DNA of 64,000 nt from NCBI GenBank assembly GCA_040756515.1, contig JBFLYW010000001.1, positions 169,840 to 233,839 on the forward strand, read 5' to 3'. The DNA comes from Bacteroidota bacterium. Its GTDB lineage: Bacteria; Bacteroidota; Ignavibacteria; Ignavibacteriales; Melioribacteraceae. Below are positions 3,879 through 60,160 of the stretch, one piece after another; position 1 is the stretch's first letter, and every line of letters begins with the position of its first letter. A program made the position numbers and the translations under genes. The notes under the pieces were generated by a model that searched no databases, was not told the origin of the DNA, and saw only the letters and a program-made list of their open reading frames with translations.

Positions 3879-4847
3879 ATGGGAAATAAAATTTTAGTTT
3901 TATTAGAACAAAGAAACGGGCAGATAAAAAAACCTTCTCTGGAAGCCGCCAAATCCGCATTTGATTTATCTGCTAAACTTTCTTGTGAATTTGAAACAGC
4001 AGTTATAGGAAATGAAATTGATAATTTGGAATCGATTGGGAATTATGGTGTTACTAAGGTAAAACATTTTAAGAATTCCGAATTGTTGAATTATTCACCT
4101 AGCGCATATTCAAAAATCCTTTCCAAATATGCCAAGGAAACCGGCGCTTCAATTATCATTGTATCAAATACAAGTCTTGGCAAAGATTTAGCTCCAAGGT
4201 TAGCTGCAGTTCTTGATGCCGGATTAGCAATGGATTGTATTTCACTTGAGGTTACGAACAATGAAATTGTTGCAACGAGACCAATTTATGCTGGTAAAGT
4301 ATTATTGGATGTTAAATTGAATAGCAGCGTTAAAATTTTCACATTAAGACCGAATGTATTTTCCGCTGCTAAGTTAAATGATGCTAAAGCAGAGGTCTCC
4401 GTTGTTAATGTTGATAATCCGGATTTAAGTACAAAGGTTGTAGAGATTAAAAAATCCGAAGGCAAAATAGATGTAGCCGAAGCGGAAATAATAGTAGCTG
4501 GCGGACGAGGTATGAAAAGCCGGGAGCATTTTCAACTTATTGATGAACTATCACAATTGTTAGGAGCTGCTTCTGGTGCATCGCGTGCCGTAGTTGATGC
4601 AGGATGGCGTCCGCATAGTGAACAGGTGGGTCAAACTGGAAAAACAGTCTCGCCAACTTTGTATATTGCGTTGGGTATTTCCGGCGCAATACAACATTTA
4701 GCGGGAATGCGTTCTTCAAAATTTATTGTTGCAGTAAATAAAGATAAGGATGCACCGATTTTTCAGATTTCGGATTATGGTATAGTAGGCGACGTTTTCG
4801 AAATTGTTCCGGTAATGATAGAAGAGATCAAGAAAATTAAATCGTGA
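3879..4847 (+). CDS. etfA: Electron transfer flavoprotein alpha subunit
   Basis: 322 aa. The C-terminal FAD-binding block IVAGGRGM...SRAVVDAGW...QVGQTGKTVSPTLYIALGISGAIQHLAGM is diagnostic of EtfA. Confidence 0.9.
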   Translation: MGNKILVLLEQRNGQIKKPSLEAAKSAFDLSAKLSCEFETAVIGNEIDNLESIGNYGVTKVKHFKNSELLNYSPSAYSKILSKYAKETGASIIIVSNTSLGKDLAPRLAAVLDAGLAMDCISLEVTNNEIVATRPIYAGKVLLDVKLNSSVKIFTLRPNVFSAAKLNDAKAEVSVVNVDNPDLSTKVVEIKKSEGKIDVAEAEIIVAGGRGMKSREHFQLIDELSQLLGAASGASRAVVDAGWRPHSEQVGQTGKTVSPTLYIALGISGAIQHLAGMRSSKFIVAVNKDKDAPIFQISDYGIVGDVFEIVPVMIEEIKKIKS

Positions 4848-4853
4848 TTAAAA

Positions 4854-5456
4854 TTGAATAAGGTTCAGGTAGAAATATTAGGATTATCCGCCAGCCCTTC
4901 AGCTGGCGGAGCTTATGCATTGCTTCTTAAAGAAGTTTATGGTGTTAGAAGGTTACCAATTATTATTGGTTCTTTTGAAGCACAATCAATAGCCCTGGAA
5001 ATGGAGGGAATTAAACCGCCGCGGCCACTTACACATGACCTGCTAAAAAATATTATTGATATTTTAGGAGGTTCGGTTTCCGAAGTTATTATTGACGAAC
5101 TACGCGAGAATACTTTTTACGCAAAAGTTAAGATTGAAGCAGCTACACTTTCTAACGAGATTGATTCACGCCCAAGTGACGCGATTGCATTGGCTGTAAG
5201 AACCGGAGCCCCTCTTTATGTTGCAGAAGAAGTTATGAAAATTGCCTCTTTTGTACCATCCTCTGAAGAAGTTGATGAAATTCAAGATTTACCCGGTCAG
5301 CACAAACCTGAAGGCAAATCCCGTAAAAAAAATGTTCCCGAAACAAAATTAGCACAACTTCAAGATCAATTGAGAGAAGCTATTGAAAAAGAAGATTATG
5401 AACGTGCGGCTAAAATAAGAGATGAAATAAACAAGATCTCAGGAAATCAAAATTAA
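4854..5456 (+). CDS. Bifunctional nuclease family protein (DUF151) with C-terminal UVR motif
   Basis: 200 aa. DUF151-like core (LPIIIGSFEAQSIALEMEGIKPPRPLTHDLL...SRPSDAIALAVR) plus a C-terminal UvrB/C-type motif (EDYERAAKIRDEI). TTG start. Confidence 0.78.
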   Translation: MNKVQVEILGLSASPSAGGAYALLLKEVYGVRRLPIIIGSFEAQSIALEMEGIKPPRPLTHDLLKNIIDILGGSVSEVIIDELRENTFYAKVKIEAATLSNEIDSRPSDAIALAVRTGAPLYVAEEVMKIASFVPSSEEVDEIQDLPGQHKPEGKSRKKNVPETKLAQLQDQLREAIEKEDYERAAKIRDEINKISGNQN

Positions 5457-5457
5457 C

Positions 5458-6021
5458 CCCAGCTTTGTCATTAGCAAAAAGTTCTAATGACCGCCATTAG
5501 AAAAAAGTAGTGTTAAGTTGTTTTAGAATAATAAGTTCAGTTTTAGTTTACTAAATGAGTTTTGGCAATTAACTGTAAGAAAAACAGACTAAGGAAACAT
5601 AATTGCCATTTGATAATTGTCTTTATAGACGAACTGGGTTTCTACTACAAAATCTGGTTTAATAATGTAATAAGGTTACCTGTAAGGCTAAGTTTTGGTT
5701 ACTAAGGTTTCCTCAATCAGATATTTGTTACTTGTTTGATTTGTTACTGGCGAACAGTTACCTAACGATTGAACCTTAGTAACAGTGAAGAAGAGAGAAA
5801 CAAATGACCTTATTACCTTATACGAGTGTAAGAAAATAATTGGCAAAGTGTTTCTGCAAAGTAGAAATAACTTCAGTTCAGCAAATGTATAAACAATTCT
5901 TACTTTATAAGGTATTGAAAGCAGGAGAAAATTGATGGTTACAATGAATCTCTTGTTCTTGCTCATACTCAGGAACTCAGCTCCATTATTGGTTTTCAGT
6001 ACTTCTAATGACAAATCTGGG
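5458..6021 (+). mobile_element. Copy 1 of a ~570-bp non-coding TIR element (MITE-like)
   Basis: Termini are CCCAGCTTTGTCATTAG ... CTAATGACAAATCTGGG (inverted). Flanks are TTAAC / TTAAT. It is homologous along its whole length to 32253..32833 and 47716..48287. No ORF is conserved among the copies. The strand label only records that all three copies share one orientation. Confidence 0.8.
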
Positions 6022-7503
6022 TTAATTAAAGATTGTCTTCCCTATTTCACATTCCAGACATTTATTTTTGGAGCAGTAATTTCTAAACAGGTCTATCATT
6101 CCTTGCGCTAAAACAGTTCTATGCAATTGATCATTCATTTGCAATGCATTAGCAACGTCAACAATTACCTGATTTTCGGAACGCTGCTGATAAATTGAAA
6201 ACACTTTTAATATTTTCTTAGTTAAGTGCGAATTTCCGAATATTTCGAAATAGATTGCAAAAAAAGGAAGGATTACATTCACAACTATTTCATCTGCGCG
6301 GGTTGCACCCACAAAATATTTTACATCGCCGTTTGAATTTTGGTCGAATACATAATGCGTTTTCCAAAAACCATCGGATTTAATTACAAATAATGAACGC
6401 AGAGAATTTATTAGAACCGTAAGATTATGGATCTCCGTAATTTTCTTAACTATTATATTAATCATGTTGCCGTGTAAAATTTCCTTAACCAATCTGGCGC
6501 CGCCGGCAATTCTGATTGTTGGAAAGTTCTGGGGTCGTAATCTAAAAAAATGCCAGCTTGTTTCATCCATAAATTTACCATCATAAAATGGTTTCACAGA
6601 ATTCCAGTTGAGCATTATCTTCTCAATATAATCCTTTGAATCCTTACTTGTAATTTTTTCAGGTGATTTAACCAATCCGCTAATGTAAAGAAGTAATGCC
6701 TCATACTTATCAACAAGTACTCCATCAGTTTCTATCTTATGCAGGAAGTTGATATTTGCCGATAGTGCTAATTCAACCATAGGAACTTTATTCTTTGAAT
6801 AACCGAGCGCTTCAAATACTAATTCATAAAAAAGCTGCTGCCAAATTTCTTTTTTGACAAAATCTTTATGTTGAAATTTTCTTTCATGAAACCTTGAAGA
6901 TAGCTCATAAGCAATTACCGGCTCTTTAATATTAAGTTCATTTAAGAATTGCAGTTCTTTTAGTCTATCGTAAATCTTGCTGCACTTTTTATGAAATCTT
7001 TCAACACCAAGTTTTGATAAAAATTTTTCTTTTATATCAGCTGGGATAGGAGTTGAAGAAGCAGAGCATTTGAGTTTTCCGGCACCTTCAATATGTTTTT
7101 CAATAATATTTTGTTTTAGATTTTCCAGGAGGTCCTTCTCAACAAAATTAGAAAGACAAATTGAAGGTACTTTACGCCCAATCCTGGTATAAACGTAAGA
7201 CTGATTATTTCTATTCAAGAGCGTAGCATGAAGAATTACACTGTTATATTTGTTATCAATATTATGCCCGTGCCCTTTCCAATCTGTGTAGTTACAATCA
7301 ATTTCAATATCTCCAACAAATGTCAGATTTCCAATTCTTATACGGGCGTTTTTAAAGTCCGGCCCAGCTATATCTTCGTTTCTTGTTCCGATATCAAGAA
7401 TAGAGATACTATCGCCTGTCTCTGTTTTAAGAGGAGATTTGAAGGATTGCTTTTGCCATATTTCATACAGCAAATTTTCTGGGATCTTTATTTCAGAACT
7501 CAT
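6022..7503 (-). CDS. DUF2851 family protein
   Basis: 493 aa. The N-terminal region (LLYEIWQKQ...GPDFKNARIRIGN...GDIEID...SDW..HGH) and the C-terminal CxxxxCxxC resemble the DUF2851 family common in Bacteroidota-like genomes. Function unknown. Confidence 0.65.
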   Translation of the reverse strand: MSSEIKIPENLLYEIWQKQSFKSPLKTETGDSISILDIGTRNEDIAGPDFKNARIRIGNLTFVGDIEIDCNYTDWKGHGHNIDNKYNSVILHATLLNRNNQSYVYTRIGRKVPSICLSNFVEKDLLENLKQNIIEKHIEGAGKLKCSASSTPIPADIKEKFLSKLGVERFHKKCSKIYDRLKELQFLNELNIKEPVIAYELSSRFHERKFQHKDFVKKEIWQQLFYELVFEALGYSKNKVPMVELALSANINFLHKIETDGVLVDKYEALLLYISGLVKSPEKITSKDSKDYIEKIMLNWNSVKPFYDGKFMDETSWHFFRLRPQNFPTIRIAGGARLVKEILHGNMINIIVKKITEIHNLTVLINSLRSLFVIKSDGFWKTHYVFDQNSNGDVKYFVGATRADEIVVNVILPFFAIYFEIFGNSHLTKKILKVFSIYQQRSENQVIVDVANALQMNDQLHRTVLAQGMIDLFRNYCSKNKCLECEIGKTIFN

Positions 7504-7599
7504 AATAATGAGTTTGTTGTTATCTGACTAACTTTGTGCCACAGCGCCCACTGACTAACTAAAGTTAATATTTAATTATTGGAAATGCTACAGCTAAAA

Positions 7600-8409
7600 T
7601 TAAATAATTGTGGAAATAGTTTCGTTCAGTTTTCTCATTGTATTATGAACCGTTTGTTTGAAAGAAACTGAGTTATCACAATAAATTAGCGACCTGCTAA
7701 CATTAAGAATAAAATTACGGTTATTATTAGAATAGAAAGTTCTTATAACACCTTCAAGATCACCACCTTGTGTACCAACGCCGGGAAGTAAAACCGGTAA
7801 TTCGCCAAATAAATTTATATTCTCTTTAAGCTCAACCAAATTTGTAGCACCGAATACTAATCCGCAGTTCTTGTTAGCATTCCACGATTCAACTCTACTA
7901 ATAACTTTCTGATAAAGGGAGCTACCATCAGCGAGTTTTAACTTTTCAAAATCCTCTGACCCTCGATTTGAGGTTAATGCAAGAATAAAAATAATTTTAT
8001 TTTGGTAATTGAGGAAGGGTTCGATTGAATCATAACCCATATAAGGGTTTACTGTTATGGAGTCGAACTGGAAATAATCGAACAAAGATTGAGCATACAT
8101 CTTACTTGTATTCCCGATGTCTCCGCGTTTAGCATCGCCAATAGTAAGTACTTCCTGAGCAGGTAAGTAACTTATTGTTTCAAGAATATTATCGAATCCT
8201 TTGGCTCCGTCTTTTTCGTAAAATGCAAAGTTTATTTTATAGGCAGCAGCAAATTTGTAAGTGTTATCAATAATTATCTTATTAAACTCTGTTACAGGAT
8301 TTTTACAGTTGAGAAGATGCTGTGGAATTTTATTAATGTCCGTATCTAACCCGACACATACGTGTAATCGTTTCTCTATTCTACTTTTTAGTTTTAGCTG
8401 GGCAGTCAT
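7600..8409 (-). CDS. pyrF: Orotidine 5'-phosphate decarboxylase
   Basis: 269 aa. Motifs VGLDTD, GDAKRGDIGNTS and PGVGTQGG are typical of the long-form PyrF. Confidence 0.85.
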   Translation of the reverse strand: MTAQLKLKSRIEKRLHVCVGLDTDINKIPQHLLNCKNPVTEFNKIIIDNTYKFAAAYKINFAFYEKDGAKGFDNILETISYLPAQEVLTIGDAKRGDIGNTSKMYAQSLFDYFQFDSITVNPYMGYDSIEPFLNYQNKIIFILALTSNRGSEDFEKLKLADGSSLYQKVISRVESWNANKNCGLVFGATNLVELKENINLFGELPVLLPGVGTQGGDLEGVIRTFYSNNNRNFILNVSRSLIYCDNSVSFKQTVHNTMRKLNETISTII

Positions 8410-19170: not shown

Positions 19171-19410
19171 TCAATTTTTGGATAGAAAATGTTGGAATCA
19201 AAAATAAAAAAAAATCCCGATATGTCTATCAAATTCTGCAAACCACTTGAAAATTTTTTTCAATAAAATTTCAACATCTCTTTCTTAGGAAATTTCGATA
19301 TAATAAGTCTTTCTTTATTTCTATGATGCAGTTAAAACGGAAAAAGAGGCTGGCTCAGAGGTAATTGTTCAATTTAAGAATCAGCTTTAATCCGTTTAAT
19401 CCCGATCTTT

Positions 19411-19533
19411 CCCGCCGTTTGCTGGCGGATTTATCCGCCATCTTTTTGGTGGACCTGTCCGCCGTCATTTTGGCGGACCTGTCCGCCGTCTTTTTGGCGG
19501 ACCTGTCCGCCGTCTTTTTGGCGGATTATCCGT
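19411..19533. repeat. Tandem array (~5 units) of a 24-bp palindrome-containing unit GGCGGACCTGTCCGCCGTCTTTTT
   Basis: Read directly: ...GGCGGATTTATCCGCCATCTTTTTGGTGGACCTGTCCGCCGTCATTTTGGCGGACCTGTCCGCCGTCTTTTTGGCGGACCTGTCCGCCGTCTTTTTGGCGGATTATCCG... The period is 24 bp. Each unit is a 6-bp GC stem with a 4-nt loop followed by a T-run on the + strand. Confidence 0.9.
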
Positions 19534-19600
19534 GTGCTATCCTATAAAAAGAAATACTTCTGATACAGACTCTTTTTCTAAAACCAGTTCAAAAAACTAT

Positions 19601-22256: not shown

Positions 22257-23098
22257 TAGTAAACAAGACTATATTTTGCCCAGACACCTACAGAAATTGC
22301 AGCTTTTTCAAACTTGCTGACTTTAATTATTTTGTTTAATACGTCGTACTCTGACTTCTCAATTTTCTGCAGAAGTTTTGAATAGATATGCTGCATAGCT
22401 CTTGCTGGAAAGAGAGCCGGTTTATCTTCAAAATAGAGAGATTGATTCGCTTTATTGAAATACTCTTTAGCTCTTTCAGCTTCAAAAGTCATCAAAGCTT
22501 TAAAATTGGAATTATATTTTTTTTGAAAGAGATCACTTTCCGAATAATTGAACTGATTAAGATCCTTTAGAGGGATATAAATTCTGCCCGATTCCGAATC
22601 CGTTCCAACGTCGCGTATTATATTTGTTAGCTGCATCGCAAGTCCCAGGTTAATAGCATAATCGCGGGTTGAATTATTTTTATAACCGAAAATTTCGATG
22701 CACATTAATCCTACAGTTGAAGCAACACGATAACAATACTCAATAAGGTCGTCAAAATGCAGATATCTCTTCCTCTGCAAGTCCATTTCCATACCAATAA
22801 TTAATTCTAAAAAGTGCTCCATCGGTATATTAAATTTCTTTTTGATGTATGCTACTTTATTCAACAATTGGTAATCTGATCTGCCGTAAATAGCTTTTTC
22901 GAATTCAGTCCGCCATTTTCTTAATCGTTCGTATTTAATATCATCTGTTTGATAATCTTCATCAACTATATCATCAGTTTTTCTGCAGAATGCATACACT
23001 GTATTCATTGCATCTCTTTTTTCTGGTGAAAGAAGACTAAATGCATAGTAAAAACTGCTCTTGCTTTCTTTAGCTATCTGTTTGGCTTGATCTTCCAT
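22256..23098 (-). CDS. hpnD: Presqualene diphosphate synthase (HpnD-type, squalene/phytoene synthase family)
   Basis: 280 aa. SSFYYAFSLLSPEKRDAMNTVYAFCRKTDDIVDE (first Asp-rich motif) and NIIRDVGTDSESGRIYIP (second motif). The N-terminus follows the pattern I recall for HpnD. Confidence 0.75.
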   Translation of the reverse strand: MEDQAKQIAKESKSSFYYAFSLLSPEKRDAMNTVYAFCRKTDDIVDEDYQTDDIKYERLRKWRTEFEKAIYGRSDYQLLNKVAYIKKKFNIPMEHFLELIIGMEMDLQRKRYLHFDDLIEYCYRVASTVGLMCIEIFGYKNNSTRDYAINLGLAMQLTNIIRDVGTDSESGRIYIPLKDLNQFNYSESDLFQKKYNSNFKALMTFEAERAKEYFNKANQSLYFEDKPALFPARAMQHIYSKLLQKIEKSEYDVLNKIIKVSKFEKAAISVGVWAKYSLVY

Positions 23099-23964
23099 GC
23101 GGCTGATATTGCTTTGAAAAATATTTTAATGAAATCGAATTTTCCTAACGACGGTCTTTCTTGCAAGACATTATATTCAATCTGTTCAATTTTCCTTAGG
23201 ATTTCTTTCCCTCCTAAAATCGTCAAAATAATTTGTTTCTTCAAATTATCTGGTAAAAAAGGAATTAATTTCCAGCCCTCGTCGAATAACTTTGATGTGC
23301 GTTCAACCTGATATTTTAATAACAATATAAAATTAGTATTATTTTTTTTTAACTCAAATACGTTTTCGTCCACACTAAAGGAATTCATTTCATCAAGCGG
23401 GATATAAATCCTTCCTTTTACAATATCAACCGAAACATCCTGATAAAAATTTGTAAGCTGAAGCGCAGTGCATATTGCATCAGAATATTTTAATGCTTCC
23501 TTATCACTAACACGGAATATTTCTAAAATTATTCTACCAACCGGATTAGCCGATCTTTCGCAATAATTAAGCAGATCGTCAAATGACGAGTAGCGCTTTT
23601 TTGTTACATCCTGTTTAAATGCGCTTAGTAAGTCATAAAAATATTTTGGGGTTAGTTTCAATAAAGTAATAGTATTATTAAGTACAAACCAGAAATCATT
23701 TTCATAATTACCCTGTAAACAATTCTTTAGTTGAGATTCATATTGTTCCAATCTTTCTATTCTTGTCTTAGAAGTTGCGCTGCCTTCATCTGCCAGATCA
23801 TCTGCTTGACGAGCAAACTGATAAACAACAGCAACATGCTTCCTTAATTCTTTCGGGATGAAAAGAGAAACAACCGGAAAATTTTCATAGTGAGACTTAG
23901 CAAAATCAATAGCTTTGTTGTAGGCAGTATTGAGAGCGTAATCCGGATTATTAATGTAATTCAT
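23074..23964 (-). CDS. hpnC: Hydroxysqualene synthase (HpnC-type, squalene/phytoene synthase family)
   Basis: The ORF-track ORF 23074..24033 is trimmed to the internal ATG at 23964 (MNYINNPDY...), because its upstream 23 codons run into the tRNA-Leu gene. YENFPVVSLFIP...YQFARQADDLADEG and FYQDVSVDIVKGRIYIP motifs match the ENFPV-type HpnC pattern. Confidence 0.72.
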   Translation of the reverse strand: MNYINNPDYALNTAYNKAIDFAKSHYENFPVVSLFIPKELRKHVAVVYQFARQADDLADEGSATSKTRIERLEQYESQLKNCLQGNYENDFWFVLNNTITLLKLTPKYFYDLLSAFKQDVTKKRYSSFDDLLNYCERSANPVGRIILEIFRVSDKEALKYSDAICTALQLTNFYQDVSVDIVKGRIYIPLDEMNSFSVDENVFELKKNNTNFILLLKYQVERTSKLFDEGWKLIPFLPDNLKKQIILTILGGKEILRKIEQIEYNVLQERPSLGKFDFIKIFFKAISAAWKIKPNR

Positions 23965-23993
23965 AAAACGCTGGAATTTGATGAAAGGATTAG

Positions 23994-24077
23994 TGCCCGG
24001 AACAGGACTCGAACCTGCACTGGTTTGCACCAACTAGCTCCTGAAACTAGCGCGTCTACCAATTCCGCCATCCGGGC
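23994..24077 (-). tRNA. tRNA-Leu (anticodon CAG), long variable arm, CCA not encoded
   Basis: The reverse complement is GCCCGGATGGCGGAATTGGTAGACGCGCTAGTTTCAGGAGCTAGTTGGTGCAAACCAGTGCAGGTTCGAGTCCTGTTCCGGGCA. It folds as a 7-bp acceptor stem, a D arm, an anticodon stem CTAGT/GCTAG with loop TTCAGGA, a long variable arm and a T loop TTCGAGT. Confidence 0.9.
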
Positions 24078-28966: not shown

Positions 28967-30202
28967 ATGGCTTATCCAGGATCGACAATACTTCGTAAAA
29001 CTTTAATAATGATACTTGCCGGCGGACAGGGAGAAAGATTGTTTCCATTAACACAATATAGAACCAAACCTTCTGTTCCATTCGGCGGGAAATACAGAAT
29101 AATTGATTTTACTTTATCAAACTGTTTGAACTCTGGATTCAGAAGGATCTATCTTCTAACACAATATAAATCTGATTCCTTAAACCGCCACTTATATGAA
29201 GCTTGGAATATATTTAATCCTGAGCTTGGAGAATTTATTTATTCTATTCCGCCACAGTTTAAAACCAGTAATAACTGGTACCTTGGAACTGCAAATGCCA
29301 TTCAACAAAACATGAATCTGGTTGAGGACGAAAATTACGAATGGTTACTAATCCTTTCAGGCGATCACATTTATAAGATGGATTACTTAAAGATGATTCA
29401 ATACCATATCGAAAAAAATGCTCAAATAACTATGTCGAGCATCGAAGTCCCAAAGAGTATTTCATCGCGTTTCGGAGTAATTCAGATTGACGATTCATAT
29501 AAAGTATTATCGTTTGTAGAGAAACCAAAAAATCCTCCGGCTATTCCTGGTAAAGATACTTCCTCATTTGTTAATATGGGCATTTATGTTTTTAATGTAA
29601 GTTCCTTAAAAGAAGTATTTAACAATACTGAGTTGAGTAAAGTACATAACCACGATTTTGGAAAAGATGTAATTCCTTATATGATTGATCATAATTACAC
29701 AGTGCAAGCTTACCGTTTTGTTGATGAAAATAAAAAAGACAAACCTTACTGGGTTGATGTTGGAACTATAGACAGCTATTATGCCGCAAGTATGGATTTA
29801 ATAAGCGTTAATCCGCATTTTAATTTATACGATAACGACTGGCCATTAAGAACACAACAGAGACAATTTCCTCCAACTAAAACTGTTTCGCATGAAGGTG
29901 AAAGAGTAGGACGTGCGTTTAATTCTGCTGTTTCTGATGGAACAATAATTTCTGGCGGACTAGTAGAAAGGTCAATCATAGGATTTAACGTAAGGGTAAA
30001 CAGTTATTCTTATATAACCGATTCGATTATAATGGATAACTGCAAGATAGGAAGACACGCAAGAATTAGAAGAGCAATAATTGACAAAAATGTTTCGATA
30101 CCGGAAGGAACTGAAATTGGGTTTGATCCGGAAGCTGATAAAAAAAGATTTACTATTTCCGAAACAGGTATTGTCGTAATACCCAAGAATTATGTTTTTT
30201 AA
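28967..30202 (+). CDS. glgC: Glucose-1-phosphate adenylyltransferase
   Basis: 411 aa. ILAGGQGERLFPLTQYRTKPSVPFGGKYRIIDFTLSNCLNSG is the canonical GlgC N-terminus, followed by a C-terminal left-handed beta-helix region. Confidence 0.9.
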   Translation: MAYPGSTILRKTLIMILAGGQGERLFPLTQYRTKPSVPFGGKYRIIDFTLSNCLNSGFRRIYLLTQYKSDSLNRHLYEAWNIFNPELGEFIYSIPPQFKTSNNWYLGTANAIQQNMNLVEDENYEWLLILSGDHIYKMDYLKMIQYHIEKNAQITMSSIEVPKSISSRFGVIQIDDSYKVLSFVEKPKNPPAIPGKDTSSFVNMGIYVFNVSSLKEVFNNTELSKVHNHDFGKDVIPYMIDHNYTVQAYRFVDENKKDKPYWVDVGTIDSYYAASMDLISVNPHFNLYDNDWPLRTQQRQFPPTKTVSHEGERVGRAFNSAVSDGTIISGGLVERSIIGFNVRVNSYSYITDSIIMDNCKIGRHARIRRAIIDKNVSIPEGTEIGFDPEADKKRFTISETGIVVIPKNYVF

Positions 30203-30283: not shown

Positions 30284-32122
30284 TTGACAATGGATTTTCA
30301 ATTAAAAGATAAACTGGAAAACTTACCATCACTCCCCGGCATTTATCAATTTATGAATGATAAGGGAAAGGTAATCTATATTGGTAAAGCAAAAAATTTG
30401 CGAAACCGTGTTCGTTCTTATTTCCAAAATAGAATTGATAATGCTAAGACAAACGCGCTTGTATCTAAAATAAATGATGTCCAATTAATAATTACGGATA
30501 GCGAAATTGAAGCACTTGTACTGGAAAATAATCTGATAAAGGACTTAAAACCACGCTATAACATTAACCTCAAGGACGATAAGTCATTTCCATACATTAC
30601 TGTTTCAAATGAACCTTTCCCTCGGATCTTTGTTACGCGGAATATTGTGAAAGACGGCTCGAAATATTTTGGACCTTTTACTGATGTAAAACAAATGAAG
30701 TCTTCTCTAAGATTGATAAATAAGATTTTTAAGATAAGAAGCTGTAAGTACGATATTACGGATGAAACCATCGAAAAGAAAAAATATAAGATCTGCCTGG
30801 ATTATCACATCAAAAAGTGCGAAGGTCCGTGCGAAGGTCTGGTAACTAAATTTCATTACAACAACATGGTTAATCAGGTAATCAAAGTATTGCGCGGTAA
30901 AACAGACGAATTGATTCAAGAGCTTAAAAAAGAAATGACAGATGCTTCTTCAAACCTGGAATTTGAAAAAGCCGCAAATATAAGAGACAGAATTGAACAG
31001 CTTAGTATCCTTTCGGCGAAACAGAAAATTGTAAGCAACGATTTTGAAGACCGGGATGTAATTAGTGCTGCTTACGAAGGGAAAGACGTTTCTGCAACAA
31101 TTTTAAATATAAGGACAGGCAAATTAGTAGGTAAAAGAGAATTTACACTTACAAGTGAAGAGAAAGAAACTGAAGAAAAAATTTACTCTGCTATAATCAA
31201 GTTTTATTATAATGATTATGTGGAAGTGCCAAAGGAAATTTTAATTGAATCAGAACCTGAAGATTCGGAATCGCTTATCGAATGGCTTAATACAAAGGCA
31301 ATAAAGAAATGCCGGTTCGTTATCCCGCAAAAACAAAGCGAAGCTAAATCTCTCCTAATGATGTGTAAGCAAAATGCTCTACTTCACTTAAAAGAGATTC
31401 AATTACAGAAAATGAAAAAAGAAGGTAATGCTCCGTATGCTCTTTCGGCATTGAAAAGAGATTTACGGTTAAAACATCTTCCGCGAAAAATTGAGTGCTT
31501 CGATAATTCTAATCTCCAGGGCAGTGATCCCGTTGCAAGTATGGTTGTTTTTGTAGATGGTAAACCAAAGAAAAGTTTATATAGAAAATTTATTATTAAA
31601 ACTGTTGAAGGTCCGGATGATTTTGCAAGCATGCGGGAAATAATTTACAGAAGATATTTAAGATTGATTGAAGAGAAAGAACCGCTGCCGGATTTAATAA
31701 TGGTTGACGGCGGTAAAGGTCAGCTTTCAAGCGCTATTGAATCGCTTAATGAACTCAACATTAAAGACTATGAAATAATTGGGTTAGCAAAGCGGCTTGA
31801 AGAGGTTTTTCTTCCTAATGAGAGTGAACCGCAATCAATTCCAAAAACATCATCCGGTTTGAAATTACTTCAGCAGATACGCGATGAAGCTCATCGATTC
31901 GCAATAACATTCCACCGCGATAGGAGAAACAAAAGAACATTTACAACGGAGCTAACAGTTATTAAAGGAATTGGCGAAAAGGCGGCTAACAAACTTCTTA
32001 CCCAATTCAAAAGTCTGGAAGAAATTAAAAGCAAATCTGAAGATGAGCTTGCAAAAATAATAGGCAAATCTAAGGCAAAAATCGTAGCTGATTTCTACAA
32101 ACAAAAAAGCCAAGACACCTAA
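30284..32122 (+). CDS. uvrC: Excinuclease ABC subunit C
   Basis: 612 aa. GIY-YIG N-terminus (PGIYQFMNDKGKVIYIGKAKNLRNRVRSY), UVR motif (FEKAANIRDRI), an Endo V-like domain (IECFDNSN) and a C-terminal HhH. Confidence 0.95.
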   Translation: MTMDFQLKDKLENLPSLPGIYQFMNDKGKVIYIGKAKNLRNRVRSYFQNRIDNAKTNALVSKINDVQLIITDSEIEALVLENNLIKDLKPRYNINLKDDKSFPYITVSNEPFPRIFVTRNIVKDGSKYFGPFTDVKQMKSSLRLINKIFKIRSCKYDITDETIEKKKYKICLDYHIKKCEGPCEGLVTKFHYNNMVNQVIKVLRGKTDELIQELKKEMTDASSNLEFEKAANIRDRIEQLSILSAKQKIVSNDFEDRDVISAAYEGKDVSATILNIRTGKLVGKREFTLTSEEKETEEKIYSAIIKFYYNDYVEVPKEILIESEPEDSESLIEWLNTKAIKKCRFVIPQKQSEAKSLLMMCKQNALLHLKEIQLQKMKKEGNAPYALSALKRDLRLKHLPRKIECFDNSNLQGSDPVASMVVFVDGKPKKSLYRKFIIKTVEGPDDFASMREIIYRRYLRLIEEKEPLPDLIMVDGGKGQLSSAIESLNELNIKDYEIIGLAKRLEEVFLPNESEPQSIPKTSSGLKLLQQIRDEAHRFAITFHRDRRNKRTFTTELTVIKGIGEKAANKLLTQFKSLEEIKSKSEDELAKIIGKSKAKIVADFYKQKSQDT

Positions 32123-32203
32123 CCACCCAAATTAAATACTGACCGCTGCTTCCTTCCGGACCTGGCGGGGTTGGGTATCAATTTGCCGATTAGGGCCTGG
32201 CAA
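32105..32203 (-). ncRNA. ffs: Signal recognition particle RNA (small/4.5S type)
   Basis: The reverse complement reads GCCAGGCCCTAATCGGCAAATTGATACCCAACCCCGCCAGGTCCGGAAGGAAGCAGCGGTCAGTATTTAATTTGGGTGGTTAGGTGTCTTGGC followed by TTTTTT. It contains the universally conserved domain IV motif AGGUCCGGAAGGAAGCAGC with a GGAA tetraloop. The 5' end (GCCAGG-CCCUAA) pairs with the 3' end (UUAGGUG-UCUUGGC). Ends are approximate to within a few nt. Confidence 0.85.
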
Positions 32204-32252
32204 AACCTGTTGCAAATATAATCAAATGTAAAAATTCTTGAAAAGATTTTAT

Positions 32253-32833
32253 CCCAGATTTGTCATTAGGAAAAGTTTCTAATGACCGCCATTAGAAAAA
32301 AGTAGAGATAAGTTGATTTATAATAATAAGATAAGTTTTGGTTTACTGATGGAATTTTAGCAATTAGCTGTAAGATAAACAGACTTAGGAAATCATAATT
32401 GTCTTATGAAAAATATGTCTTCAGAGAGGAACTGGGTTATTATGACAAAATCGGGTTTAATAATGTAATAAGGTTACCTGTAAGGTTAAGTTTTGGTTAC
32501 TAAGGTTTCCTCAATCAGATATTTGTTACTTGTTTGATTTGTTACTTGTTTGATTTGTAACTGGCGAACAGTTACCCAACGATTGAACCTTAGTAACAGT
32601 GAAAAAGAGAGAAAAAATGACCTTATTACCTTATGCGAGTGTAAGAAAGTAATGGGGAAAAGTGTTGCTACAAAGTAGAAATGGCTTCAGTTCAAGCAAA
32701 TGTATAAACAACTATTACTTTCTTTATAAGGTATGGAAAGTAAGAGAAGATTAAGAGTTATAAATACCTCTTGTTGTTACTCAGGAACTCAGCTCCTTTC
32801 TTTTGTTACAGTAGTTCTAATGACAAATCTGGG
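32253..32833 (+). mobile_element. Copy 2 (most diverged) of the ~570-bp non-coding TIR element
   Basis: Termini are CCCAGATTTGTCATTAG ... CTAATGACAAATCTGGG, with identical 5-bp flanks TTTAT / TTTAT. It carries a 16-bp tandem duplication (GTTACTTGTTTGATTT x2 at 32525..32556) inside the conserved core. Confidence 0.8.
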
Positions 32834-32853
32834 TTTATTGAATTGCAATTGAA

Positions 32854-42428: not shown

Positions 42429-42815
42429 TGTCATTTCGACACCATCGTTGACGAATCCGAAGAGTCGAACCTAAACCTTGAAGGTTATGAGTTGTTATTT
42501 AATTCTGCATAACATTCAAGGTTGTTGATTCTTCAGGCATACCGACTGTGTCGGTATTCCATCAGAATGACAGAGAAGAAAGTGTCCTGTCATTCTGAAC
42601 CGAACCTAAACCTTGAAGGTCAAGAGTTGTTATCTATTTCCGCACGACCTTCAAGGTTGTTGATTCGCTTCGCTCCTCAGAATGACAATGTGAGGTGAAC
42701 TGTCATTCTGAACCGAACGAAGTGAAGTGAAGAATCGATTCGTAGTTTCTCAGTCTCCCGACAAGTCGGGATCCATCGAAATGACATATCTTAGTCGCTT
42801 CGCTCCTTCGAAATT
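42429..42815. repeat. Cluster of three nested palindromic (REP/MITE-like) units
   Basis: Unit 1 is 42429..42572, unit 2 is 42588..42687 and unit 3 is 42701..42786. Each is bounded by TGTCATT(C/T)(T/C)GA ... T(C)(A/G)(G/A)AATGACA. Units 1 and 2 contain an inner ACCTTGAAGGT...ACCTTCAAGGT hairpin, and unit 3 contains CCCGACAAGTCGGG. The cluster is homologous, in inverted orientation, to 59731..60160. Confidence 0.85.
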
Positions 42816-43264
42816 AAATTTCTGAATATATCAGAAGCCAATTTATAATTTAATTTCCTGTAATTATACACCCTTGAATATAAATTAACTAAAACCTCGT
42901 CCACTTCCTTTCAATGCTACGGTTGGGTAATACAATAAAAGGAAGTAGAACCAGATAAATAATAAAGTATTATTCGAACGCCAGAAAATAACTAAATCGA
43001 AATTTCAATTTCAGTTTCTTAAACACCGGCAAAACAAAAAAATAATCGATGCACAATTTTAAGAAGCACAAATATAAAGTCGAGATTGTCAAAAAGAAAG
43101 GATTTATTAACATACATAGGTGAGTTCAAAACCCGCACTGCATAACTAAATAGCCAATTTAATCCAAATTTTTCATTAGAAAAATTTGGGTTAAATATAA
43201 ATAATAATTGTAAGCTAAGCATTATATTGCTGACATAATTTCTACAAATTAGATTACAAACTAA

Positions 43265-47452: not shown

Positions 47453-47715
47453 TTCGATCAATTGAACTAACACAATTAGCAGATATTCAATAACGCGGCA
47501 AAAGAAGCGGCTATTTATCTCTTGAATATCAGAAATAATTTGTAACGGCTGACTATATCTATGATTTATATCTCTTCATTATTTCTTCAACTTGATGACG
47601 ATTATAATCCGAAGAACAAAGCATTAATCCGCCGGATGTAATTACTGTTCGGATAGCTTGTTGCTTTCTCTAAGGGATGACATAACAAACGAATTGACGG
47701 CTAAAATAAAATAAA

Positions 47716-48287
47716 CCCAGATTTGTCATTAGTAAAAAGTTCTATTGACCGCCATTAGAAAAAAGTAGTGTTAAGTTGTTTTAGAATAATAAGTTCAGTT
47801 TTGGGTTACTGAGGTAGTTTTGGCAATTAACTGTAAGAAAAACAGACTAAGGAAACATAATTGCTATTTGATAATTGTCTTTATAGACGAACTGGGTTTC
47901 TATGACAAAATCTGGTTTAATAAGGTAATAAGGTTACCTGTAAGGCTAAGTTTTGGTTACTAAGGTTTCCTCAATCAGATATTTGTTACTTGTTTGATTT
48001 GTAACTGGCGGACAGTTACCTAACGATTGAACCTTAGTAACAGTGAAGAAGAGAGAAACAAATGACCTTATTACCTTATATGAGTGTAAGAAAATAATTG
48101 GAAAAGTGTTTCTGCAAAGTAGAAATAACTTCACTTCAGCAAATGTATAAACAATTCTTACTTTATAAGGTATTGAAAGCAGGAGAAAATTGATGGTTAC
48201 AATAAATCTCTTATTCTTGCTAATACTCAGGAACTTAGGAACTCAGCTCCATTATTGGTTTTCAGTACTTCTAATGACAAATCTGGG
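47716..48287 (+). mobile_element. Copy 3 of the ~570-bp non-coding TIR element (close relative of copy 1)
   Basis: Termini are CCCAGATTTGTCATTAG ... CTAATGACAAATCTGGG. Flanks are ATAAA / ATAAT. It is near-identical to copy 1, apart from scattered substitutions and an 8-bp tandem duplication (AGGAACTT AGGAACTC) near the right end. Confidence 0.8.
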
Positions 48288-48361
48288 ATAATTAGATAAG
48301 GAGCAAAAATAATAGGAGAATAACAGAGCAGTGAATAGAAAAATCAAATTTATTTAATACA

Positions 48362-59642: not shown

Positions 59643-59730
59643 ATTTGGGTTTTAGGAAAGTCTCAACTATAAATCGGCACTGATTTTTAATTACATTCGA
59701 CTATTGAAAATGAAGAAATTTTGTTTCAGT

Positions 59731-60160
59731 GGATTCCAACTTGTTAGGAGACTGAGTAATGTTATTTCGAGGATCCCGACTTGTCGGGAGACCAAGAAAT
59801 GTTATTTCGAGGGTACGAAGTGAAAGAGAAATGTTATTTCGAAGGAGCGAAGCGAATCAACAACCTTGAAGGTCGTGCGGGGCTTTTATGAAAATTTTTA
59901 GACCTTCAAGGTTGAGAAGTAAGGTGTGTAAAAGATTCGTACAACCTTGAAGGTTTGAGAACAATCAAAACTACTTGCTCAACCTTCAAGGTTAGTTAAG
60001 TTACCTTCAAGGTTGTGGGGATGCTTCTTAACCTTGAAGGTCATCAAGGTATCAAATAACAACGCTTGACCTTCAAGGCTTAGGTTCGACTCTCACGATC
60101 CATCAACGACAGACCAAAATGACAATGGGATTTGTCATTCAGTGGAGCGAAGCGACTGAG
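59731..60160. repeat. Second cluster of nested palindromic units, inverted homologue of 42429..42815
   Basis: Contains three (A)TGTTATTTCGA units, GGATCCCGACTTGTCGGGAG, seven copies of the 11-mer ACCTT(G/C)AAGG(T/C), and a terminal ...AAAATGACA / TGTCATTCAG pair. Its reverse complement aligns block-by-block with the 42.4-kb cluster. Confidence 0.85.

What the first reader, a model, noticed from the sequence alone, without database searches (positions are those of the whole stretch)
5458..6021. Three same-orientation copies of an ORF-less ~570-bp element with 17-bp terminal inverted repeats and 4-5 bp AT-rich flanking duplications
Copies lie at 5458..6021, 32253..32833 and 47716..48287 and are colinear over their full length. 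Each starts CCCAG(A/C)TTTGTCATTAG and ends CTAATGACAAATCTGGG, a perfect 17-bp inverted repeat in copies 2 and 3. The bases immediately outside are TTAAC|TTAAT, TTTAT|TTTAT and ATAAA|ATAAT. That is what target-site duplication by a DDE transposase would leave. No reading frame is shared by all three copies: the 108-aa and 62-aa minus-strand ORFs in copies 1 and 3 are broken in copy 2. No transposase gene is present anywhere in the 64 kb. Three copies in 64 kb of otherwise core genes is a high density. From memory, IRs ending in CC with 4-5 bp duplications are the pattern tabulated for the IS1380 family; that link is only an inference. At ~570 bp the element is large for a MITE and carries far more conserved internal sequence than transposase binding alone needs.
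Basis: partly seen in the sequence, partly recalled or inferred. Interest (0 to 1): 0.7.

Follow-up and report, generated by a model that had tools for sequence, protein, structure and literature searches.

The report
Chimeric non-autonomous IS1380-family transposon copies
Three copies of a ~570-bp gene-less jumping element use the ends of an IS1380-type insertion sequence and carry a repeat module linked to a second, unrelated transposase family; the element is real and recently mobile, but it is a variant of a familiar kind.

Summary
Three colinear, same-strand copies (5458-6021, 32253-32833, 47716-48287) have 17-bp terminal inverted repeats (TIRs), 5-bp AT-rich flanking duplications and no shared ORF.

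The IS1380 guess is also supported. The same TIR bounds a 1480-bp insertion sequence (IS) in Ignavibacteriota MAGs. That IS encodes an IS1380-family transposase and has perfect 5-bp duplications. Dozens of 165-651-bp miniature derivatives carry the same ends.

Mobility is shown directly. Relatives at 94% nucleotide identity have precise empty sites for copies 1 and 2. A fourth copy lies on another contig of the same MAG.

The large interior is explained by a chimeric build:
- a canonical ~200-bp miniature element whose right repeat has decayed;
- a ~160-bp "H doublet", a palindromic pair of box arrays;
- ~185 bp of unknown origin, closed by an intact right repeat.

H doublets are common in metagenomes. 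There they flank and form arrays beside an IS200-like Y1 (HUH) transposase gene. In this element the doublet is the least diverged interior segment.

The element is therefore a trans-mobilised IS1380 derivative that resembles a "transposable module". It is a new variant of a known kind and of moderate interest.

The parts
5458..6021 (+). Copy 1 of the element (564 bp)
   Evidence: The site is empty in relatives.
5453..5457 (.). Left copy of the target duplication of copy 1 (TTAAC); contains the TAA stop codon of gene 4854-5456
   Evidence: Empty-site relatives read aaTTAATtaaag (L120, L121), aaTTAATtgaag (L122) or aaTTAGTtaaag (L245-L247).
6022..6026 (.). Right copy of the target duplication of copy 1 (TTAAT); contains the stop codon of the minus-strand DUF2851 gene 6022-7503
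5458..5474 (+). Left terminal inverted repeat (IRL) of copy 1, CCCAGCTTTGTCATTAG
5484..5500 (+). Subterminal motif CTAATGAC-CGCCATTAG. Its first 8 nt pair with the inner half of the IRL. The motif is shared with the IRL side of the full-length 1480-bp IS.
5642..5657 (+). Internal decayed right repeat (IRR') that ends the ~200-bp MITE-like left module
5661..5821 (.). H doublet of copy 1: A box 5661-5677, B box 5698-5709, 62-bp spacer, B' box 5772-5783, A' box 5806-5821
5822..6004 (+). Right-hand segment of unknown origin; the most diverged part of the element
   Evidence: No homologue was found in any fetched locus.
6005..6021 (+). Right terminal inverted repeat (IRR) of copy 1, CTAATGACAAATCTGGG
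32253..32833 (+). Copy 2 (581 bp): IRL 32253-32269, IRR' 32440-32455, H doublet 32459-32634 (its spacer carries a 16-bp tandem duplication), IRR 32817-32833
   Evidence: The site is empty in L248 and L249.
32248..32252 (.). Left target duplication of copy 2 (TTTAT)
   Evidence: The BLAST breakpoints in the relative overlap by exactly these 5 nt.
32834..32838 (.). Right target duplication of copy 2 (TTTAT)
47716..48287 (+). Copy 3 (572 bp): IRL 47716-47732, IRR' 47900-47915, H doublet 47919-48079, IRR 48271-48287
   Evidence: Also present in two other assemblies of the same population.
47711..47715 (.). Left flank of copy 3 (ATAAA)
48288..48292 (.). Right flank of copy 3 (ATAAT); matches the left flank at 4 of 5 positions

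Best explanation
The three sequences are copies of one non-autonomous transposable element. An IS1380-family DDE transposase encoded elsewhere moves it in trans.

That transposase recognises the 17-bp terminal repeats. It probably also uses the IRL-side subterminal motif CTAATGACCGCCATTAG. It inserts into AT-rich 5-mers (TTTAA, TTAAT, TTTAT, ATAAA) and duplicates 5 bp.

The element is chimeric:
- Positions 1 to about 200 are a canonical ~200-bp miniature derivative (MITE) of the IS. Its own right repeat has decayed.
- The next ~160 bp are an "H doublet". This is two inverted arrays of TAAGGTT-type boxes: AATAAGGTAATAAGGTT-N20-GTTACTAAGGTT, then 62 bp, then the mirror image.
- A further ~185 bp of unknown origin ends in an intact right repeat.

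H doublets belong to a dispersed repeat family. In other Ignavibacteriota/Bacteroidota-type genomes this family flanks IS200-like Y1 (HUH) transposase genes and forms arrays next to them.

I infer that a MITE inserted beside an H doublet. The transposase then began using a more distal right repeat, as IS1380-family elements do when they form "transposable modules". This created a longer unit that has since multiplied.

Shown: the copies, TIRs, duplications and empty sites; the cognate IS and its family; the MITE relatives; the box architecture; the H-Y1 adjacency.

Inferred: trans-mobilisation in this genome; the capture scenario; any role for the H doublet.
For: Structure of the copies:
- Six exact TIR matches against 0.64 expected; three colinear copies.

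The cognate IS:
- The same TIR bounds a 1480-bp IS at L048 2709-4188, L079 3705-5184 and L072 364-1843. Its perfect 5-bp duplications are TTTAA, ATTAA and TTAAA.
- Its 439-aa ORF scores 244.3 bits on NF033539 transpos_IS1380 (cutoff 180) and 159.7 bits on PF13701.
- The ORF is 45% identical to annotated IS1380-family transposases on Aliarcobacter plasmids and about 30% identical to ISEcp1.
- The element's first ~50-93 bp match the IRL side of that IS and of a 651-bp deletion derivative in a Melioribacter MAG. That derivative still encodes the C-terminal 147 aa of the transposase.

Related miniature elements:
- 23 TIR pairs in the fetched loci (elements of 165-1480 bp) have identical flanking 5-mers.

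Empty sites and copy number:
- Empty sites exist for copy 1 and copy 2 in relatives at 94.3% nucleotide identity, and in relatives at about 77-81%.
- Those relatives have no such TIR in 41 kb of orthologous DNA.
- A fourth copy lies on a 21.8-kb contig of the same MAG.
- Short-read contigs of this organism stop at the element.

Left module:
- Positions 1-200 align end to end with ~217-bp MITEs.
- The left module ends in TTTCTATGACAAAATCTGG, compared with TTTCTAATGACAAATCTGGG in the true repeat. A match this good is expected 0.07 times per shuffled window.

H doublet:
- More than 120 metagenome contigs carry H units.
- The window's arrangement (A B, gap, B' A') with a 42-62-bp gap is the commonest class.
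- 11 loci have a ~146-aa Y1 transposase gene, mostly within 42 bp of an H unit (PF01797, 72.7 bits).

Literature:
- IS1247 (IS1380 family) makes 5-bp duplications (PMC3281130, Table 2).
- ISPme1 and ISEcp1 mobilise DNA next to their 3' end by misrecognising the right repeat (PMC9330008, section 7.3).
Against: - No IS1380-family transposase is in the window, and I could not search the rest of the genome. A source of transposase in this organism is therefore unproven.
- Two of the three duplications match at only 4 of 5 positions. In both cases the mismatch is the base next to the IRL.
- The distal right repeat is a perfect 17/17 match. Known transposable modules end in only weakly IRR-like sequences, so simple repeat-skipping does not fully explain how the chimera arose.
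- The middle of the left module (positions ~96-184) is poorly conserved against other MITEs. Its homology rests on the two ends and on its length.
- The H doublet shows about 4% substitutions between sub-families, against 15-27% in the other interior segments. A pure "passenger" model does not predict this.
Confidence: 0.8

Rival explanations
1. The element is a simple internal-deletion derivative of one full-length IS1380-family IS. Its ~530-bp interior would then be decayed transposase-gene sequence rather than captured foreign DNA.
For: Such derivatives exist in the family. The 651-bp element in L058 keeps the last 147 codons of the transposase gene. The first ~90 bp of the window element do derive from the IRL side of the IS.
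Against: tblastn with the transposase finds nothing in the three copies. blastn against the full-length IS copies matches only the ends. The interior contains an IRR-like sequence at the position where ~200-bp MITEs end. It also contains a canonical H doublet, which occurs elsewhere without IS1380 ends.
Confidence: 0.05
2. The active part is the H doublet. The unit would be a REPIN-like element moved as single-stranded DNA by a Y1 (HUH) transposase, with the IS1380-type ends being incidental relics.
For: H doublets are dispersed and lie beside Y1 transposase genes in other genomes. The doublet is the best-conserved interior segment of the element.
Against: The homology between copies runs exactly from TIR to TIR. 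It is flanked by 5-bp duplications, and the empty sites match removal of the whole TIR-bounded unit. From general knowledge, IS200/IS605-type Y1 transposition makes no target duplication. No free-standing H unit and no Y1 gene is in the 64 kb.
Confidence: 0.03
3. The element, or its conserved core, has been co-opted by the host. It could act as a structured RNA or as a protein-binding site, for example an insulator or stabiliser between convergent genes or a regulatory module upstream of the SRP RNA gene. This reading is compatible with an origin by transposition.
For: The plus strand folds with z = -4.5 and the minus strand with z = -3.7. The core is conserved between diverged sub-families. 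Copies lie between convergent genes, and copy 2 lies 50 bp upstream of the 5' end of the SRP RNA gene.
Against: There is no Rfam match, even at permissive thresholds. Promoter-like sites are no more frequent than in shuffles (2 found, 3.3 expected), and there are no terminator-like sites. The insertions are absent from 94%-identical relatives, so the neighbouring genes work without them. The fold z-scores owe much to the TIRs and the palindromic boxes. The spacers inside H and H' are not complementary, so the boxes are conserved as sequence rather than as a helix.
Confidence: 0.1

Closest known systems
IS1380-family insertion sequences (IS1380, IS1247, ISEcp1, ISPme1) and their "transposable modules" (TMos)
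   Same: - The TIRs start with CC and are identical to those of an IS encoding an IS1380-family DDE transposase.
- The duplication is 5 bp, as for IS1247 (PMC3281130, Table 2).
- Extra DNA lies beyond a by-passed right repeat, on the side where ISPme1 and ISEcp1 capture flanking DNA (PMC9330008, section 7.3).
   Different: - There is no transposase gene. The proximal part is a ~200-bp miniature derivative, not a full IS.
- The distal end is a perfect IRR, not a weak look-alike.
- The cargo is a non-coding repeat module rather than genes.
- The cognate IS (1480 bp) is slightly shorter than the 1550-2000 bp I recall for the family.
Bacterial MITEs (miniature inverted-repeat transposable elements)
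   Same: The element is gene-less and multi-copy. It has TIRs and target duplications matching a parent IS. Its sites are polymorphic and intergenic. In the same phylum there are dozens of 165-330-bp relatives with the same ends.
   Different: At 564-581 bp it is about 2.5 times the modal size of its own family. It also contains a second, unrelated repeat system. Its best-conserved interior part is that cargo and not transposase-binding sequence.
REP/REPIN sequences with their RAYT (REP-associated Y1 transposase) genes
   Same: The H doublet is an inverted pair of conserved units. It is dispersed in intergenic DNA, arranged in alternating arrays (176-bp period in L142), and flanks a single small Y1/HUH transposase gene.
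   Different: - Each H unit is an array of direct TAAGGTT-type boxes about 45-65 bp long. It is not a 20-40-bp hairpin with a GTAG or CGTC tag (PMC3733652).
- The associated protein fails the NCBIfam RAYT model (19.7 bits against a cutoff of 80). It sits on the IS200 threshold (55.1 against 55).
Y1 transposase subclass 1.2 of Quentin et al. 2018 (PMC6006769)
   Same: The H-associated proteins are about 146 aa. They carry an HUH motif (EHAH), a WQ motif, and the subclass signature Y---Q--HH (YILNQPKHH). The paper reports this subclass as low in copy number and largely confined to Cyanobacteria and Bacteroidetes.
   Different: The paper lists this subclass as having no associated REP and no typical IS200 end structures. 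Here its genes are flanked by H units that also occur elsewhere on the same contigs. I assigned the subclass from sequence motifs only, not from a phylogeny.

Membership tests
Non-autonomous derivative (MITE) of an IS1380-family IS | Terminal inverted repeats match those of an IS that encodes an IS1380-family transposase | tested here: met
   The 17-bp TIR is identical at one end, and has 1-2 mismatches at the other end, of the 1480-bp IS in L048, L072 and L079. The transposase scores 244.3 bits on NF033539 (cutoff 180).
Non-autonomous derivative (MITE) of an IS1380-family IS | 4-5-bp target-site duplication; repeat tips begin with CC | tested here: met
   Copy 2 has TTTAT on both sides, and the empty site holds TTTAT once. 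Copies 1 and 3 match at 4 of 5 positions. 23 related TIR pairs have perfect 5-mers. The tips read CCCAG. The family values come from PMC3281130 Table 2 (IS1247, direct repeat of 5 bp) and from my memory of the ISfinder family table.
Non-autonomous derivative (MITE) of an IS1380-family IS | No transposase ORF; no ORF conserved between copies | tested here: met
   ORF lists for each copy. tblastn with the transposase is negative.
Non-autonomous derivative (MITE) of an IS1380-family IS | Several copies in the genome and insertion polymorphism (empty sites) | tested here: met
   Three copies lie in the window and a fourth on another contig of the same MAG. Empty sites exist for copies 1 and 2 in relatives.
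Non-autonomous derivative (MITE) of an IS1380-family IS | Miniature size (usually under about 300-500 bp) | tested here: inconclusive
   The element is 564-581 bp, whereas most family members are 165-331 bp. Its left module alone (~200 bp) fits the usual size.
Non-autonomous derivative (MITE) of an IS1380-family IS | A cognate autonomous IS is present in the same genome and moves the element in trans | not testable with these tools
The cognate IS was found only in other Ignavibacteriota MAGs.
IS1380-family transposable module (TMo) | One complete IS copy plus adjacent DNA, ending in a weakly IRR-like sequence | tested here: not met
   The proximal part is a gene-less ~200-bp derivative, and the distal repeat is a perfect 17/17 match. 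Only the topology resembles a TMo: IRL, by-passed IRR, extra DNA.
REPIN/RAYT system (for the H doublet) | Inverted doublets of a conserved unit, dispersed and clustered around a Y1 transposase gene | tested here: met
   A relaxed pattern finds 255 units in the metagenome and viral loci plus the window's three copies. 60 doublets have the window's topology. 11 loci carry a Y1 gene. Neither a Y1 gene nor a free-standing H unit is present in the window itself.
REPIN/RAYT system (for the H doublet) | The associated protein is a RAYT | tested here: not met
   NF047646 REP_Tyr_transpos scores 19.7 bits against a cutoff of 80. NF033573 transpos_IS200 scores 55.1 against 55. PF01797 scores 72.7 bits.
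REPIN/RAYT system (for the H doublet) | Each unit is a short imperfect palindrome with a GTAG or CGTC tag | tested here: not met
   Each unit consists of direct TAAGGTT-type boxes with non-complementary spacers.
Any Rfam RNA family | Covariance-model match at or near the gathering score | tested here: not met
   The window yields only the SRP RNA and one tRNA at gathering scores. The best match inside copy 1 scores 24 bits against a cutoff of 50. Four loci rich in H doublets give no match at E <= 0.1.

The most novel reading that the evidence does not exclude
The conserved core may be functional cargo rather than a passive passenger. Under this reading, H doublets are the cognate recognition repeats of the subclass-1.2 Y1/HUH proteins, a group published as having no associated repeats. 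The chimeric element would then be a vehicle by which a DDE (IS1380) transposase spreads binding sites for an unrelated, possibly domesticated, HUH enzyme through a genome. Selection on that interaction would keep the core at about 4% divergence while the rest of the interior drifts to 15-27%.
Probability: 0.2. Interest if true: 0.65.

Novelty: new variant of a known kind. Interest (0 to 1): 0.4.

Why it matters
For annotation, the finding explains three gene-free blocks and the contig breaks seen in short-read assemblies of this organism. It also defines a widespread TIR, CCCAGATTTGTCATTAG, that marks IS1380-type elements and their miniature derivatives in Ignavibacteriota, Bacteroidota and several other phyla.

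For transposon biology, it is a clean natural example, with empty sites, of an IS1380-type miniature element that has grown by taking in neighbouring DNA. This is the behaviour that makes ISEcp1 medically important, seen here without any transposase gene on board.

The cargo points to a repeat family (H doublets) associated with a Y1 transposase subclass. That subclass has so far been described as lacking cognate repeats. If the association holds, the biology of this subclass becomes testable.

Tried and rejected
- Rfam. The whole window at gathering scores, copy 1 at E <= 10, and four H-rich loci at E <= 0.1 gave nothing relevant.
- Promoter and terminator scan of copy 1. Promoter-like sites are no more frequent than in shuffles, and there are no terminator-like sites.
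- Metagenome scan with a 24-mer from the conserved core. It returned 0 hits, so the specific 570-bp family is rare or absent there.
- Exact look-ups of the 108-aa ORF and of P0001. Neither is on record.
- The TIR pair in L039 (2.6 kb apart) looked like an autonomous element. It encloses ordinary genes, so it is probably two separate ends.
- blastn of the element against all 250 fetched loci. Only positions 1-93, the H units and the terminal ~30 bp (the IRR, and only in contigs of the window's own organism) have homologues. Positions ~365-534 remain an orphan.
- blastn against plasmids. No match.
- Literature search for the box sequences. Nothing relevant.
- Gene context of H units. There is no orientation bias relative to neighbouring genes, which argues against a promoter or terminator role.
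- Empty site for copy 3. Only assemblies of the same population were retrievable, and they carry the copy.
- I considered a group II intron, a retron, CRISPR, a 6S-like RNA, an inverton and an integrase attachment site for the core. None fits the box architecture or the Y1 association.

Full report
**Observation**

- They align colinearly from end to end, with mean column identity 90%. Copies 1 and 3 are 94.9% identical. Copy 2 is about 82% identical to either.
- The pattern CCCAGNTTTGTCATTAG occurs exactly six times in the window, once at each predicted end. With 3 mismatches allowed there are 8 matches, against 0.64 expected from shuffles.
- The flanking 5-mers are TTAAC|TTAAT, TTTAT|TTTAT and ATAAA|ATAAT.
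- No ORF is shared by the three copies.
- tblastn finds no IS1380-type or Y1 transposase anywhere in the 64 kb.
- Rfam finds only an SRP RNA (32105-32202, minus strand) and one tRNA in the window, and nothing credible inside the element.

**Source organism**

The DUF2851 protein next to copy 1 is identical to MEW6506262.1 of an NCBI MAG labelled "Bacteroidota bacterium". That MAG carries it on a 240,717-bp contig. The nearest named relatives are Melioribacteraceae, in the phylum Ignavibacteriota. G+C content is about 34%. Short-read contigs of the same organism end exactly at the element, as expected for a multi-copy repeat.

**The ends belong to an IS1380-family insertion sequence**

Most are Ignavibacteriota and Bacteroidota MAGs. 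A few are Acidobacteria, Hydrogenophilales, Burkholderiaceae and others.
- Clustering the ORFs next to these repeats gave one recurrent protein.
- In an Ignavibacteriota MAG the repeat bounds a 1480-bp element three times: L048 2709-4188, L079 3705-5184 and L072 364-1843. These copies have perfect 5-bp duplications TTTAA, ATTAA and TTAAA.
- The 439-aa ORF of this IS scores 244.3 bits on NCBIfam transpos_IS1380 (cutoff 180) and 159.7 bits on Pfam DDE_Tnp_1_4.
- It is 45% identical to annotated IS1380-family transposases on Aliarcobacter plasmids and about 30% identical to ISEcp1.
- The transposase-upstream end of this IS reads CCCGGATTTGTCAATAG-N10-CTAATGACCGCCA. The window element starts CCCAGATTTGTCATTAG-N9-CTAATGACCGCCATTAG. 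The left end of the element is therefore the IRL side of such an IS. Similarity extends to about position 93 in a Melioribacter MAG.
- That Melioribacter element is 651 bp long and still encodes the last 147 residues of the transposase. It shows how miniature derivatives arise.
- In the fetched loci, 23 TIR pairs enclosing 165-1480 bp have identical flanking 5-mers. All are AT-rich: TTTAA, TTAAT, TTTAT, ATAAA, TTCAA.
- A 5-bp duplication is what IS1247, an IS1380-family member, makes (PMC3281130, Table 2).

**Mobility is shown by empty sites**

*Copy 1*
- Three relatives at 77-81% nucleotide identity (L120-L122) and three contigs at 94.3% identity (L245-L247) keep the same gene order.
- In all of them the two convergent genes overlap by 4 bp at their stop codons.
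- The site reads aaTTAATtaaag in L120 and L121, aaTTAATtgaag in L122, and aaTTAGTtaaag in the 94% relatives. The window has aaTTAAC[element]TTAATtaaag.
- The duplication therefore gave each gene its own stop codon.

*Copy 2*
- The 94% relative (L248) reads gaaaagat-TTTAT-tgaattg once. The two BLAST segments overlap by exactly the 5 duplicated bases. An 81% relative (L249) is also empty.

*Copy 3*
- Only assemblies of the same population (99.9% identity) could be retrieved, and they carry the copy.

*Wider picture*
- The relatives have no IS1380-type repeat in 41 kb of orthologous sequence.
- A fourth copy exists in the same MAG. A 92-aa ORF product (MEW6509121.1, on a 21.8-kb contig) differs by one or two residues from the translation of every window copy.
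- Copy 2 differs by 18% from copies 1 and 3, yet it is also absent from the 94% relative. The element family must therefore have diverged into sub-lineages before these insertions.

**Why the element is so large: it is chimeric**

*Left module*
- Positions 1-200 align end to end with the ~217-bp miniature elements of related genomes.
- This module finishes in TTTCTATGACAAAATCTGG. That is a decayed right repeat in the correct orientation; the true repeat reads TTTCTAATGACAAATCTGGG.
- A match this good to the 20-mer is expected 0.07 times per shuffled window.

*H doublet*
- Three bases after the decayed repeat comes a ~160-bp palindromic module.
- It reads AATAA(T/G)GTAATAAGGTT-N20-GTTACTAAGGTT, then a 62-bp spacer (78 bp in copy 2, from a 16-bp tandem duplication), then AACCTTAGTAAC-N22/23-GACCTTATTACCTTAT.
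- I call each half an H unit.

*Right segment*
- A further ~185 bp has no detectable homologue.
- It leads to an intact right repeat.

**What the H doublet is**

- Similar units occur in an Ignavibacteriaceae MAG, independent of IS1380 ends.
- The consensus extends beyond the searched boxes: AATAAGg before the first box, and often ATAAGGTTT 10-16 bp after the second.
- With a relaxed pattern there are 255 units. The commonest arrangement is the window's own (A B, gap, B' A') with a gap of 42-62 bp. The opposite arrangement with gaps of 12-50 bp is also common, and arrays occur, for example with a 176-bp period in L142.
- H units show no orientation bias relative to neighbouring genes.
- The spacers inside H and H' are not complementary. 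The boxes are therefore conserved as sequence, not as a helix.
- Eleven of the roughly 120 loci carry a ~146-aa ORF. In nine of them the nearest H unit lies within 42 bp of a gene end. In L143 the whole unit B'A'-gene-AB spans 546 bp.
- The protein is an IS200-like Y1/HUH transposase. It scores 72.7 bits on PF01797 and 55.1 bits on NF033573 (cutoff 55). The RAYT model scores only 19.7 bits against a cutoff of 80.
- Its motifs are EHAH, WQ and YILNQPKHH. They fit the Y---Q--HH signature and ~148-aa size of subclass 1.2 of Quentin et al. 2018. That paper describes the subclass as low in copy number, largely confined to Cyanobacteria and Bacteroidetes, and without associated REPs (PMC6006769, sections 17-18).
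- I assigned the subclass from motifs only.

**Conservation pattern**

Among the three copies, variable alignment columns make up:

| Segment | Variable columns |
|---|---|
| TIRs | 0-6% |
| Left subterminal region | 15% |
| Middle of the left module | 24% |
| Right segment | 27% |
| H doublet | 13% |

In the H doublet, 16 of the 23 variable columns are a single duplication, so substitutions are about 4%. Because the sub-lineages diverged before insertion, this suggests either constraint on the doublet or gene conversion. Three copies cannot separate the two.

**Mechanism**

- The best-supported reading is trans-mobilisation by an IS1380-family DDE transposase acting on the outer repeats, with 5-bp duplication of AT-rich targets.
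- The layout is IRL, by-passed right repeat, extra DNA, distal right repeat. This mirrors the "transposable modules" that ISPme1 and ISEcp1 make by misrecognising their right end (PMC9330008, section 7.3).
- There are two differences from known modules: the proximal part is gene-less, and the distal repeat is perfect. I cannot say how the perfect distal repeat was acquired. One possibility is that it came from a second, largely deleted copy.
- Whether the transposase is present in this genome is unknown.

**Comparison and verdict**

- The element passes every testable criterion for a non-autonomous IS1380-family derivative except "miniature" size.
- It is not a TMo in the strict sense.
- Its cargo behaves like a REPIN but fails the formal REP and RAYT criteria.
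- I found no description of this element family or of H doublets in the searchable literature.
- I rate it a new variant of a known kind, with moderate interest.
- The more novel thread is the H-doublet/Y1 association, which the window only touches.

Noticed in passing
L123-L244 (e.g. L143 3394-3939, L142 1892-3693, L137 6601-7103): H units (AATAAGGTAATAAGGTT-N21-24-GTTACTAAGGTT) are widespread in metagenomes and form alternating arrays. In 11 loci they flank a ~146-aa IS200-like Y1 transposase with the Y---Q--HH signature of subclass 1.2. That subclass is published as having no associated repeats (PMC6006769).
   Followed up: partly
window 32105-32202 (-): This is the bacterial small SRP RNA gene (64.7 bits). 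Copy 2 of the element is inserted 50 bp upstream of its 5' end and 20 bp downstream of the glycosyltransferase-9 gene. The 94% relative lacks the insertion, so the SRP RNA promoter context differs between the two.
   Followed up: partly
window 42466-42666 and 59860-60090: A second repeat family is present: hairpin units of the form AACCTTGAAGGT...ACCTTCAAGGTT, about 55-65 nt long, several per cluster. They share the AAGGTT core with the H boxes.
   Followed up: no
window 42430-42800 and 59730-59850; L248 (reverse-complement coordinates 7449-7931): These are clusters of short G+C-rich palindromic units, such as GTCATTTCGAATCCCGCAGAGCGGGATGAGAA and TGTCATTCTGA. The 94% relative has a 483-bp cluster of them inserted between the NTP-transferase and uvrC genes, where the window (about 30195-30200) has none.
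   Followed up: partly
window 43163-43193: TCCAAATTTTTCATTAG-AAAA-ATTTGGG is a 31-bp palindrome resembling abutted left and right repeats. It is flanked by TTTAA and TTAAA. It may be a decayed ultra-short derivative, or a chance AT-rich palindrome.
   Followed up: partly
L022 (contig JAMCQL010000013.1, minus-strand repeat at locus 4219-4235) and L106 1469-1514: These are ultra-short members of the same element family. They consist of little more than the two terminal repeats, separated by about 3-12 bp (about 40-46 bp in all).
   Followed up: no
window 19399-19542: Five to six tandem copies of a 24-bp palindromic unit (TGGCGGACCTGTCCGCCGTCTTTT) lie in the intergenic region between two minus-strand genes.
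   Followed up: no
L061 1204-1560: In an Ignavibacteriaceae MAG, a 218-bp miniature element with the same TIRs lies 25 bp from a free-standing pair of H units. This is the same neighbour relationship that is fused inside the window element.
   Followed up: partly
window 23993-24077 (-): This is a tRNA-Leu (CAG) gene. The 319-aa ORF listed at 23074-24033 overlaps it, so the listed TTG start is probably too far upstream.
   Followed up: no
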